Below, piece after piece: positions 44,523-45,918 of a stretch of DNA of 64,000 nucleotides. Location of the stretch: assembly GCF_058153355.1 (NCBI RefSeq), contig NZ_CM177019.1; one strand, given 5' to 3'. Position numbers and translations under genes: made by a program. Below the pieces are notes generated by a model. The model did no database searches and was not told where the DNA came from. It saw only the letters and a program-made list of their open reading frames with translations. The first letter of the stretch is position 1; every line of letters begins with the position of its first letter.

Positions 44523-45371
44523 ATGGCGACATACCTTATTGGCGACGTTCATGGTTGTTACGATGAACTGATCGCATTGCTGCATAAAGTAGAATTTACC
44601 CCTGGGAAAGACACCCTCTGGCTGACAGGCGATCTGGTCGCGCGCGGCCCTGGTTCGCTGGATGTTCTGCGCTATGTGAAATCCTTAGGCGACAGCGTAC
44701 GTCTGGTGCTGGGCAATCACGATCTGCATCTGCTGGCGGTATTTGCCGGGATCAGCCGCAATAAACCGAAAGATCGCCTGACACCGCTGCTGGAAGCGCC
44801 GGATGCCGACGAGCTGCTTAACTGGCTGCGTCGCCAGCCTCTGCTGCAAATCGACGAAGAGAAAAAGTTGGTGATGGCCCACGCCGGGATCACGCCGCAG
44901 TGGGATCTGCAGACTGCCAAAGAGTGCGCGCGCGATGTAGAAGCGGTGCTGTCGAGCGACTCCTACCCCTTCTTCCTTGATGCCATGTACGGCGATATGC
45001 CAAATAACTGGTCACCGGAATTGCGGGGGCTGGGAAGACTGCGGTTTATCACCAACGCCTTTACCCGTATGCGCTTTTGCTTCCCGAACGGTCAACTGGA
45101 TATGTACAGCAAAGAATCGCCGGAAGAAGCCCCTGCCCCACTGAAACCGTGGTTTGCGATTCCTGGCCCCGTCGCTGAAGAGTACAGCATCGCCTTTGGT
45201 CACTGGGCATCGCTGGAGGGCAAAGGTACGCCGGAAGGTATTTACGCGCTGGATACCGGCTGTTGCTGGGGCGGTTCATTAACCTGCCTGCGCTGGGAAG
45301 ATAAACAGTATTTTGTCCAGCCGTCGAACCGGCATAAGGATTTGGGCGAAGGAGAGGCGGTCGCGTCTTAA
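44523..45371 (+). CDS. apaH: Bis(5'-nucleosyl)-tetraphosphatase (symmetrical) ApaH
   Basis: 282-aa ORF starting [45 protein letters not shown] (metallophosphatase GDVHG motif); its C-terminal tail ...LGEGEAVAS differs slightly from K-12 as I recall it. Confidence 0.95.
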
Positions 45372-45682
45372 ATCCCGTCGAGCATAAAATCTAATGCTCC
45401 TTTAATCAAAGTTCGGTGCGCGCTGGCATCGCAAAATTTCGTTCCCAGCGTGTTAACTGGAACAGTTGCAGTCTCATGCGTCATGAGCACATATTCTTTG
45501 CCGTCTGCCAGTAAAAGGATTGGGTTAAGCCGTTCTGGTGGGCGAATATGGCTAAATCGTTCAATAGGTGTTAATGGAATAACGATACGGCGATTAATCT
45601 CACCAATAATGTCGCTGGTAACATCGATAACAAAGGGAAACGCGGCGTTCCTGCCGCGACTGCGGTATACCGTAAATTGCAT
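45368..45682 (-). CDS. ccdB: CcdB-family toxin homolog (chromosomal ccd system)
   Basis: 104-aa [42 protein letters not shown]...[10 protein letters not shown]; collinear with F-plasmid CcdB (MQFKVY...RRMVIPLA...LMFWGI) from memory; located 2 nt downstream of ccdA in the folA-apaH gap. Confidence 0.85.
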
Positions 45683-45684
45683 CG

Positions 45685-45918
45685 CTAGAAGCTCCGGTAC
45701 TCATCAGAGAAACATCCGGTTTCATCAGCCAATTGATTTAACGCAGCAATAGCTTCTGCGTTCTCTTCACGCCAACGTGTTGCTGCATGTTTTTTAAGTT
45801 CAGCATTGAGCGCAACCGTAAGGGTGGCGCTCATATTTAAGCCTGCATCACGAGCGCGATTGACTAACTCACGGTCGACGGTGACGGTCACACTTTGTGT
45901 GGTACGTTTTGCAGTCAT
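45685..45918 (-). CDS. ccdA: CcdA-family antitoxin homolog
   Basis: 77-aa ORF MTAKRTTQSVTVTVDRELVNRARDAGLNMSATLTVALNAELKKHAATRWREENAEAIAALNQLADETGCFSDEYRSF; resembles F-plasmid CcdA (ITVTVD..., RWKAEN...); GGAG Shine-Dalgarno; upstream region contains a GTATAC palindrome. Confidence 0.85.
   Translation of the reverse strand: MTAKRTTQSVTVTVDRELVNRARDAGLNMSATLTVALNAELKKHAATRWREENAEAIAALNQLADETGCFSDEYRSF

What the first reader, a model, noticed from the sequence alone, without database searches (positions are those of the whole stretch)
45368..45918. ccdA-ccdB-like toxin-antitoxin pair inserted between folA and apaH
The convergent folA and apaH are separated by 632 bp, and that gap is filled by two tightly linked minus-strand ORFs of 77 aa and 104 aa, 2 nt apart. 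The downstream ORF is collinear with F-plasmid CcdB (MQFTVY... versus MQFKVY..., a shared RRxVIPL block, and a ...GI C-terminus). The upstream ORF resembles CcdA (TVTVD, RWREENAEAI, and an acidic/aromatic C-tail). As I recall, K-12 has under 100 bp here, and this interval is the known home of the chromosomal ccd system in O157:H7 and many other E. coli. The pair is the clearest accessory module in the window.
Basis: partly seen in the sequence, partly recalled or inferred. Interest (0 to 1): 0.55.

Follow-up and report, generated by a model that had tools for sequence, protein, structure and literature searches.

The report
Known chromosomal ccdAB toxin-antitoxin islet
The two small genes between folA and apaH are an intact copy of the well-studied "ccdO157" toxin-antitoxin pair (a DNA-gyrase poison and its antidote), which sits at this same spot in about 37% of complete E. 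coli genomes, so the finding is correct but ordinary.

Summary
The observation and the interpretation both hold. Window 45685-45918(-) encodes a 77-aa CcdA (Pfam PF07362, E 1.5e-26). Window 45368-45682(-) encodes a 104-aa CcdB (PF01845, E 6.8e-31, full length). The genes lie 2 nt apart in the 632-bp gap between the convergent folA and apaH, where K-12 has 77 bp carrying a REP-like palindrome.

The module is the published ccdO157 islet (Wilbaux 2007, Mine 2009, and reviews read here). The same DNA occurs once, always on the chromosome, in 2024 of 5426 complete E. coli genomes. RefSeq annotates it there as CcdA/CcdB family proteins.

CcdA here is identical to the O157:H7 protein. CcdB differs from it at five residues, none of them in a column conserved across the subfamily. 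The exact allele is WP_032183189.1, seen on 72 contigs. A predicted CcdB structure matches solved CcdB structures (TM up to 0.86).

The upstream spacer carries a promoter-like site overlapped by GTATAC-type hexamers, as in the F-plasmid ccd operator.

The likely mechanism, inferred by homology, is gyrase poisoning by CcdB, neutralisation by Lon-labile CcdA, and autorepression. Whether this CcdB allele is still toxic is untested.

Novelty: already known. Interest is low.

The parts
45685..45918 (-). ccdA, a 77-aa antitoxin of the CcdA family. The N-terminal part aligns with the ribbon-helix-helix DNA-binding region of F CcdA, and the C-terminal tail ...ETGCFSDEYRSF aligns with the toxin-binding region.
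   Evidence: ORF. Pfam PF07362, E 1.5e-26, model 2-71 of 71. PDB F-plasmid CcdA 2adl, E 9e-6. Identical to O157:H7 WP_000125566.1. This allele is on at least 1000 contigs.
45368..45682 (-). ccdB, a 104-aa toxin of the CcdB family (inferred gyrase poison). It is intact and ends in ...LDGI.
   Evidence: ORF. Pfam PF01845, E 6.8e-31, model 1-101 of 101. PDB V. fischeri CcdB E 1.5e-16 and F CcdB E 7e-11. AlphaFold2 model with pLDDT 83.8 whose top 16 PDB matches are all CcdB, TM 0.78-0.86. The exact allele is WP_032183189.1, on 72 contigs.
45919..46003 (-). The 85-bp folA-ccdA spacer with a putative promoter and operator. The -35 CTGATA is at 45977-45972 and the -10 TATACT at 45955-45950. A perfect GTATAC lies at 45956-45951, with GTATAA at 45945-45940, TGTACA at 45937-45932 and GTATAT at 45999-45994. 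The Shine-Dalgarno AGGAG is at 45932-45928, 9 nt before the ATG.
   Evidence: Promoter-like hit (2 hits in the scanned kilobase against 1.6 expected, so weak on its own). Three hexamers lie within one mismatch of GTATAC, against 0.2 expected per 85 bp, which only 0.2% of 85-bp tiles of the window reach. The F ccd operator is centred on GTATAC palindromes (PMC5389731). No terminator-like site was found between folA and ccdA.
45692..45695 (-). GGAG, 9 nt upstream of the ccdB ATG and inside the 3' end of ccdA. It is a likely ribosome-binding site for ccdB translation coupled to ccdA.
   Evidence: Read directly from the sequence. Coupling is an inference.
45373..45982 (.). Islet-specific DNA of about 610 bp that takes the place of about 55 bp of REP-like palindromic DNA in K-12. 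The left junction is immediately after the apaH stop codon. The right junction is about 20 bp from the folA stop.
   Evidence: Pairwise alignments to K-12 and megablast colinearity. No direct or inverted repeats bracket the segment.
45351..45371 (+). The 3' end of apaH. In the ccd-bearing genomes examined it carries two 3-bp insertions relative to K-12 (...LGEGEAVAS* against ...LGEAAAS*; 282 against 280 aa).
   Evidence: The 282-aa ApaH WP_000257187.1 is also present in O157:H7, in strain 2020CK-00188 and in the remnant-bearing strain 2017-02-2CC.

Best explanation
This is an intact copy of the chromosomal ccdO157-type type II toxin-antitoxin operon, a roughly 610-bp islet that replaces the REP-containing folA-apaH spacer. 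ccdA and ccdB are probably transcribed together from a promoter in the 85-bp spacer after folA, possibly also by read-through from folA, and translated in a coupled way. By homology, CcdB is a dimeric gyrase poison that binds GyrA and traps the cleavage complex, causing double-strand breaks and SOS induction. CcdA binds CcdB through its C-terminal tail and neutralises it, and it is turned over by Lon protease. CcdA-CcdB complexes repress the operon by binding GTATAC-like sites that overlap the -10 region. What is shown here: gene integrity, family membership, fold, genomic position, population distribution and the operator-like motifs. What is inferred from published work on O157:H7 and F: toxicity, gyrase targeting, Lon lability and autoregulation. 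In evolutionary terms it behaves as a dispensable, slowly decaying selfish islet rather than a housekeeping function.
For: Both proteins match their Pfam families over the full length. They match solved CcdB and CcdA structures by sequence. The predicted CcdB fold matches CcdB structures, including the CcdB:GyrA14 complex entries 1x75 and 4elz, at TM 0.82-0.86. The layout is antitoxin first with a 2-nt gap, the same as in plasmid relatives with identical gene lengths. The module is 98.4% identical to that of O157:H7, with an identical CcdA. It occurs in 2024 of 5426 complete E. coli genomes, always as a single chromosomal copy at this locus, and is annotated as CcdA/CcdB family. GTATAC-like hexamers are enriched at the promoter, as in the F operator. 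Published function of the O157 system: gyrase is the target, the antitoxin is degraded by Lon, CcdA of F neutralises CcdB of O157 but not the reverse, and there is no post-segregational killing (PMC5543033 and PMC3460896). The window CcdB differs from the subfamily consensus only at R45H, V59A and A78T, all in variable columns, and H45 also occurs in the Hafnia plasmid homologue. For dispensability and decay: other E. coli carry a frameshifted ccdB with an intact ccdA, or only a 67-bp ccdB remnant. Against O157, pN/pS is 0.78 for ccdB, 0 for ccdA and 0.02 or less for folA and apaH.
Against: Nothing contradicts the identification. Several weak points remain. Toxicity of this particular CcdB allele is untested. 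From my memory of Mine et al. 2009, which I could not read here, about 29% of natural ccdO157 variants had an inactive toxin. The F-CcdB residue W99, important for killing, is Asp here (D102), as in the whole O157 subfamily. The promoter-like hit alone is no better than chance. The GTATAC enrichment rests on 3-4 short motifs, one of which (GTATAT, 45999-45994) lies in DNA shared with K-12. The upstream regions of the plasmid relatives contain none of the GTATAC-type hexamers scanned for. The pN/pS values rest on only 7 and 2 substitutions.
Confidence: 0.93

Rival explanations
1. The module is a decayed variant. CcdA is functional, but this CcdB allele (R45H, V59A, A78T against the species consensus; five differences from O157) has lost toxicity, so the pair is a harmless relic.
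For: ccdB evolves almost neutrally against O157 (5 nonsynonymous and 2 synonymous changes, pN/pS 0.78), while ccdA has no amino-acid change. Clear decay occurs in other genomes: a frameshifted ccdB and a 67-bp remnant. The literature describes a degenerative process for ccdO157 (PMC2654758). From memory, about 29% of variants had an inactive toxin (Mine 2009).
Against: The ORF is full length. The three lineage-specific changes fall in columns that vary among relatives, and H45 is the residue in the Hafnia plasmid CcdB. Residues invariant across the subfamily and F are all kept, including Q2, F3, Y6, D20, S23, D24, R32, the VIPL motif, G103 and I104. The allele recurs on 72 contigs. The predicted fold is confident.
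Confidence: 0.27
2. The pair is kept because it benefits the host. In one version it is an anti-addiction module whose CcdA neutralises CcdB toxins of incoming plasmids. In another it contributes to persister formation and drug tolerance.
For: Anti-addiction was shown for the chromosomal ccd of Erwinia chrysanthemi against F (PMC7167474). A persistence role for ccdABO157 is reported by Gupta 2017 as cited in PMC5543033. Plasmid-borne relatives of the same subfamily exist: a Hafnia alvei plasmid (CcdB 74%) and the E. coli IncL/M plasmid p142_B (61%). Their CcdA C-terminal tails are nearly identical to the one here, GCFSDEYRSF or GCFSDEYRTF.
Against: CcdA of O157 does not neutralise CcdB of F, and the F system still kills in ccdO157 hosts (PMC5543033 and PMC3460896). 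Over 60% of complete E. coli genomes lack the module, including the 53% with a K-12-like interval. ccdB shows relaxed constraint and decays in some strains. Same-subfamily plasmid copies are rare in PLSDB: 4 records at 60-80% identity among 4491 with a CcdB hit. There is no hit to PADLOC defence models.
Confidence: 0.12
3. The two ORFs are chance reading frames in an expanded intergenic region, not genes.
For: None beyond their small size.
Against: Pfam E-values of 1e-26 and 1e-31 over the full model lengths. The module is conserved in 2024 genomes. Ribosome-binding sites are present.
Confidence: 0.005

Closest known systems
ccdO157 (ccdAB of E. coli O157:H7 EDL933/Sakai; Wilbaux et al. 2007, Mine et al. 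2009)
   Same: Same locus (folA-ccdA-ccdB-apaH), same gene lengths and 2-nt spacing, and the same overlap of the ccdB and apaH stop codons. CcdA is identical. The islet DNA is 98.4% identical.
   Different: CcdB differs at five residues (O157 to window: S10G, V28E, R45H, V59A, A78T). At positions 10 and 28 the window carries the species consensus and O157 is the derived form. The flanking core genes are more diverged than the islet: pS 0.12-0.14 against about 0.03.
F-plasmid ccdAB (CcdA/CcdB, also called LetA/LetD), the founding type II TA system
   Same: Same Pfam families and fold, antitoxin-first operon, conserved MQF.VY, SDII, RR.VIPL and C-terminal GI in CcdB, conserved RW..EN and G.F.DE in CcdA, and GTATAC-type hexamers at the promoter.
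   Different: Only 36% (CcdB) and 28% (CcdA) identity, and below the NCBIfam F-type equivalog cut-offs (60.5 against 147 bits; 38.6 against 100 bits). W99 of F CcdB is Asp here. The module is chromosomal, not plasmid-borne. Published work on the O157 system reports no post-segregational killing and only one-way cross-neutralisation. The spacer is 85 bp, against the 113-bp, eight-site F operator.
Vibrio fischeri chromosomal CcdB (PDB 2kmt, 3jrz, 4elz)
   Same: It is the best solved-structure match by sequence (E 1.5e-16) and by fold (TM 0.86). It shares the LVIPLTPIE block and the C-terminal GI, and it also lacks the Trp of F CcdB.
   Different: About 35% identity, in a different genus and genomic context.
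Plasmid-borne members of the same subfamily (Hafnia alvei plasmid NZ_CP015380.1; E. coli IncL/M plasmid p142_B NZ_CP048339.1)
   Same: Matching architecture: a 77-78-aa CcdA, a 2-nt gap and a 104-aa CcdB. CcdB is 74% and 61% identical, CcdA 66% and 61%. The CcdB C-terminus LDGI is identical and the CcdA tail GCFSDEYR(S/T)F nearly so.
   Different: They are on mobilizable or conjugative plasmids, one of them next to repA. Their upstream regions contain none of the GTATAC-type hexamers scanned for.

Membership tests
CcdB toxin family (Pfam PF01845) | Full-length match to the family profile | tested here: met
   PF01845, E 6.8e-31, residues 2-103 against model 1-101 of 101.
CcdB toxin family (Pfam PF01845) | CcdB/MazF-type fold: beta-sheet core followed by a C-terminal helix | tested here: met
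   AlphaFold2 model with pLDDT 83.8 and a helix at 87-102. The top 16 Foldseek PDB matches are all CcdB, TM 0.78-0.86, followed by MazF. Caveat: the input alignment was shallow (8 sequences) and contained the F and V. fischeri sequences.
CcdB toxin family (Pfam PF01845) | C-terminal gyrase-contacting residues (F CcdB W99-G100-I101) | tested here: inconclusive
   G103 and I104 are conserved, but the Trp is replaced by D102, as in O157/CFT073-type CcdB and in the plasmid relatives. V. fischeri CcdB, which has been solved in complex with GyrA14 (4elz), also lacks the Trp. The change is therefore compatible with activity but does not prove it.
CcdB toxin family (Pfam PF01845) | Poisons DNA gyrase (GyrA), giving growth arrest and SOS induction | not testable with these tools
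   Reported for the 95%-identical O157 protein (PMC5543033). Not tested for this allele.
CcdA antitoxin family (Pfam PF07362) | Full-length match to the family profile | tested here: met
   PF07362, E 1.5e-26, residues 8-77 against model 2-71 of 71. F CcdA 2adl, E 9e-6 over residues 8-75.
CcdA antitoxin family (Pfam PF07362) | Neutralises the cognate CcdB and is degraded by Lon | not testable with these tools
   The protein is identical to O157:H7 CcdA, for which both properties are reported (PMC5543033).
Type II toxin-antitoxin operon | Adjacent, co-oriented small genes with the antitoxin upstream and a short gap or overlap | tested here: met
   ccdA at 45918-45685, then 2 nt, then ccdB at 45682-45368. 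GGAG lies 9 nt before the ccdB ATG.
Type II toxin-antitoxin operon | Autoregulated promoter with antitoxin binding sites | tested here: inconclusive
   A promoter-like site (no better than chance alone) is overlapped by a perfect GTATAC plus two or three imperfect copies, an enrichment found in the top 0.2% of window tiles. This resembles the F operator. There are no binding data.
ccdO157 genomic islet (folA-apaH) | Located between the core genes folA and apaH, replacing the short REP-containing spacer | tested here: met
   The same arrangement is present in O157:H7.
ccdO157 genomic islet (folA-apaH) | Near-identity to the O157:H7 ccd sequences | tested here: met
   98.4% DNA identity, CcdA 100% and CcdB 95%.
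F-plasmid ccdAB orthologues (NCBIfam NF010262 and NF010264 equivalogs) | Score at or above the curated equivalog cut-off | tested here: not met
   CcdB 60.5 bits against a cut-off of 147, and CcdA 38.6 bits against 100. The pair is a family member but not an F-type equivalog.

The most novel reading that the evidence does not exclude
The chromosomal CcdA, which is under purifying selection while its toxin drifts, may be retained as an anti-addiction factor against plasmids that carry ccd modules of the same O157-type subfamily, such as the IncL/M plasmid p142_B or Hafnia-type plasmids. Their CcdA toxin-binding tails are almost identical to this one. Alternatively, the lineage-specific CcdB allele (R45H, V59A, A78T) may have altered activity.
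Probability: 0.12. Interest if true: 0.3.

Novelty: already known. Interest (0 to 1): 0.1.

Why it matters
It matters little beyond correct annotation. The locus is a textbook example of a chromosomal toxin-antitoxin islet that comes and goes within a species, and this window adds one more intact allele. Two practical points follow. The strain carries a potential gyrase poison, which is relevant when engineering the folA region or using ccdB-based counter-selection, because a resident CcdA homologue is present. The published O157 CcdA does not neutralise F CcdB. The locus is also a convenient marker of lineage: ccd is present in 37% of complete genomes and the K-12-like REP spacer in 53%.

Tried and rejected
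1. I tried to read the primary papers (Mine 2009 by DOI and PMC2666520; Wilbaux 2007, PMC1855815; Gupta 2017, PMC5585702). None is held. I relied on open reviews that summarise them and mark the remaining details as memory.

2. A terminator-like hairpin inside the 5' end of ccdB (45658-45641) was considered as a device to lower toxin expression. Its folding energy is no better than that of shuffled sequence (z = 0), so I dropped it.

3. I looked for direct or inverted repeats bracketing the islet as signs of transposition or site-specific integration. None was found. The only repeat is an 11-nt direct repeat with both copies at the folA-proximal end.

4. PADLOC anti-phage defence models gave no hit for either protein.

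5. I tried to identify the exact source genome through the exact CcdB allele. The nearest contigs are 97.5-99.3% identical over 6.6-8 kb and none is identical, so the source remains unidentified.

6. The 'E. fergusonii' allele P0007 sits in the same folA-apaH context on a contig 96-99% identical to the window. It therefore gives no independent evidence for the islet outside E. coli-like genomes.

7. I did not run the metagenome or genome-collection scans or the large homology searches. The answer was already clear and the cost was not justified.

Full report
**Observation.**
The ORF list and raw sequence show apaH on the + strand at 44523-45371 and folA on the - strand. The 159-aa folA coding sequence is 46483-46004. 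The 632 bp between them (45372-46003) contain two - strand ORFs.
- A 77-aa ORF lies at 45918-45685.
- A 104-aa ORF lies at 45682-45368, separated from the first by 2 nt.
- The stop codon of the second ORF overlaps the apaH stop codon (TTAA, 45368-45371).
- AGGAG lies 9 nt before the first ATG, and GGAG lies 9 nt before the second.

**Identity.**
- The 104-aa protein matches Pfam CcdB (PF01845) over the whole model at E 6.8e-31.
- The 77-aa protein matches Pfam CcdA (PF07362) over the whole model at E 1.5e-26.
- Against solved structures, CcdB matches Vibrio fischeri CcdB (E 1.5e-16) and F-plasmid CcdB (E 7e-11), end to end. CcdA matches F-plasmid CcdA (E 9e-6).
- An AlphaFold2 model of CcdB has mean pLDDT 83.8. 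Its 16 best PDB matches are all CcdB structures at TM 0.78-0.86, including the CcdB:GyrA14 complexes, followed by MazF-type toxins.
- The NCBIfam equivalog models built on the F-plasmid proteins are hit well below their cut-offs (60.5 against 147 bits; 38.6 against 100 bits).

The pair therefore belongs to the Ccd family but is not the F-plasmid orthologue. This agrees with 36% and 28% identity to F CcdB and CcdA.

**Comparison with other genomes.**
- The 632-bp interval matches 2024 of 5426 complete E. coli genomes. Each match is a single copy on the chromosome, annotated by RefSeq as "CcdB family protein" and "type II toxin-antitoxin system CcdA family antitoxin".
- In O157:H7 the gene order is the same, rsmA-apaG-apaH / ccdB-ccdA-folA-kefC. 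The islet is 98.4% identical, CcdA is identical, and CcdB differs at five residues: S10G, V28E, R45H, V59A and A78T, written O157 to window.
- K-12 MG1655 has only 77 bp between folA and apaH, containing a REP-like palindrome.
- A K-12-like short interval is present in 2856 of 5426 genomes. The remaining 10% or so must carry something else.
- Two decayed forms were inspected. An APEC strain has a frameshifted ccdB with an intact ccdA. Strain 2017-02-2CC retains only 67 bp of ccdB next to an unrelated "IS1096 element passenger TnpR family" gene.

**Boundaries.**
- Alignment with K-12 places the left junction directly after the apaH stop codon, at 45372/45373.
- The right junction is about 20 bp from the folA stop, near 45982-45986.
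- About 610 bp of islet DNA replace about 55 bp of REP-like DNA.
- The last codons of apaH carry two 3-bp insertions relative to K-12 (282 against 280 aa) in the four ccd-bearing or remnant-bearing sequences examined.
- No repeats bracket the islet, so there is no signature of a transposition or integration mechanism. The literature makes the same point, that the mechanism of TA movement is unknown (PMC7167474).

**Literature.**
- Open reviews and genome papers state that the ccdO157 system forms a genomic islet between folA and apaH in O157:H7. They also state that K-12 has 77 bp there, that about half of isolates carry a REP sequence instead, and that the system is decaying within E. coli (PMC2654758, PMC3184786, PMC7167474, PMC7232551).
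- Functionally, the chromosomal toxin targets gyrase and the antitoxin is degraded by Lon. The F antitoxin neutralises the chromosomal toxin but not the reverse, and only the plasmid system mediates post-segregational killing. A later study reported a role in persistence and a five-fold lower gyrase affinity than F CcdB (PMC5543033, PMC3460896).
- One review (PMC10886550) says the chromosomal CcdA protects against F CcdB. That conflicts with the two sources above and with my recollection of Wilbaux 2007, so I follow the majority.
- The primary papers themselves are not held in the library.

**This allele.**
- The exact CcdB sequence is already in public collections as WP_032183189.1 ("MULTISPECIES ... 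[Escherichia]") on 72 contigs. The CcdA sequence is the dominant allele, on at least 1000 contigs.
- Among sampled cluster members the consensus CcdB has G10, E28, R45, V59 and A78. The window therefore differs from the consensus only at R45H, V59A and A78T. O157 is the derived form at positions 10 and 28.
- These three positions are variable among plasmid relatives, and H45 is the residue in the Hafnia plasmid protein. All columns invariant across the subfamily and F are preserved.
- Against O157, ccdB has 5 nonsynonymous and 2 synonymous changes (pN/pS 0.78). ccdA has 0 and 2. folA and apaH together have 1 and 39. The excess of replacement changes in ccdB over the flanks is significant (Fisher p 8e-5).

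This fits the published picture of a toxin under relaxed constraint and an antitoxin under purifying selection. I judge the toxin more likely active than not, roughly 70:30, but that is an inference.

**Regulation.**
- The 85-bp spacer has a sigma-70-like site, CTGATA, 16 nt, then TATACT. On its own this is no better than chance.
- A perfect GTATAC overlaps the -10 element, with GTATAA 11 bp downstream of it, TGTACA a further 8 bp downstream, and GTATAT 43 bp upstream. That gives three hexamers within one mismatch of GTATAC where 0.2 are expected, a density reached by only 0.2% of 85-bp tiles in the window.
- The F ccd operator is centred on one perfect and two imperfect GTATAC palindromes bound by CcdA-CcdB chains (PMC5389731).
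- Autorepression by the same logic is therefore plausible but untested. The spacer is also shorter than the 113-bp, eight-site F operator.
- No terminator-like site separates folA from ccdA, so read-through from folA is possible.

**Origin.**
- In the plasmid collection most CcdB hits are F-type at about 35% identity. A few plasmids carry much closer relatives with the same layout: a Hafnia alvei mobilizable plasmid (CcdB 74%, CcdA 66%), a Klebsiella aerogenes plasmid (69%), and the E. coli IncL/M plasmid p142_B (61% and 61%), where the pair sits next to repA.
- This suggests that the chromosomal islet derives from a plasmid ccd lineage distinct from F.
- Synonymous divergence between the window and O157 is about four-fold lower in the islet than in folA plus apaH (4 of 128 against 39 of 308 sites, p 0.0014). 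That is consistent with the islet having spread between lineages by recombination after they diverged. The counts are small.

**Verdict.**
The finding is correct in both observation and interpretation, and it is already known. It is routinely annotated, was characterised experimentally in O157:H7 from 2007 onward, and is present in over a third of complete E. coli genomes. The only open point is whether this allele of the toxin is active, which needs a simple expression test. Interest is low.

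Noticed in passing
window 18344-18383 (between sgrS at 18383-18609 and leuD): The sugar-efflux gene setA is absent. K-12 positions 77593-78853 are replaced by about 40 bp. The same junction is found in 2143 of 5426 complete E. coli genomes, so this is a common polymorphism.
   Followed up: yes
whole window, and 41000-45371 in particular: The window is only 95.5-97.5% identical to K-12. No complete RefSeq E. 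coli genome reaches 99% over 41000-45371; the best is 98.9%. Strain 2020CK-00188 is 100% identical over the 632-bp gap and folA and 99.9% over the next kilobase toward kefC, but only 98.3% over 41000-45371. This points to a poorly sampled, recombinant lineage. The source genome was not identified.
   Followed up: partly
window 45368-45918 against the flanks 44523-45371 and 46004-46483: Synonymous divergence from O157:H7 is about 0.03 in ccdA and ccdB but 0.12-0.14 in apaH and folA (Fisher p 0.0014). This suggests the islet is younger than, or has been exchanged independently of, its flanking core genes. The counts are small.
   Followed up: partly
window 45947-45957 and 45990-46000: An 11-nt direct repeat, TCTAGTATACA and TCTAATATACA. 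One copy lies in folA-proximal DNA shared with K-12 and the other inside the islet's promoter region. It could be microhomology at the insertion junction or a pair of operator half-sites. Unexplained.
   Followed up: no
L006 (E. coli 2017-02-2CC, NZ_AP027764.1) 2497-3227: In this strain the folA-apaH site holds a 67-bp ccdB remnant plus a 204-aa gene annotated 'IS1096 element passenger TnpR family protein' in place of ccdA and most of ccdB. It shows the site accepting other foreign DNA.
   Followed up: no
L008 (GCA_004523355.1, SOND01000002.1) 1-1153: Most contigs read that carry the exact CcdB allele have carB followed directly by a DUF903 gene and kefF. They lack the cai/fix/yaaU block, which the window does contain at about 48600-61500.
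   Followed up: no
PLSDB record CP054241.1 (834 kb): This record is listed as a plasmid but carries apaH next to a 96%-identical ccdB. It is most likely a chromosome fragment filed as a plasmid. Likewise, 3 of the 5425 surA-apaH matches in the E. coli collection are on records labelled plasmid.
   Followed up: no
window 29143-29241: A roughly 100-bp stretch in the araD-araA intergenic region matches two overlapping K-12 positions (66649-66746 and 66661-66734...), which indicates a repeated REP-like element there.
   Followed up: no
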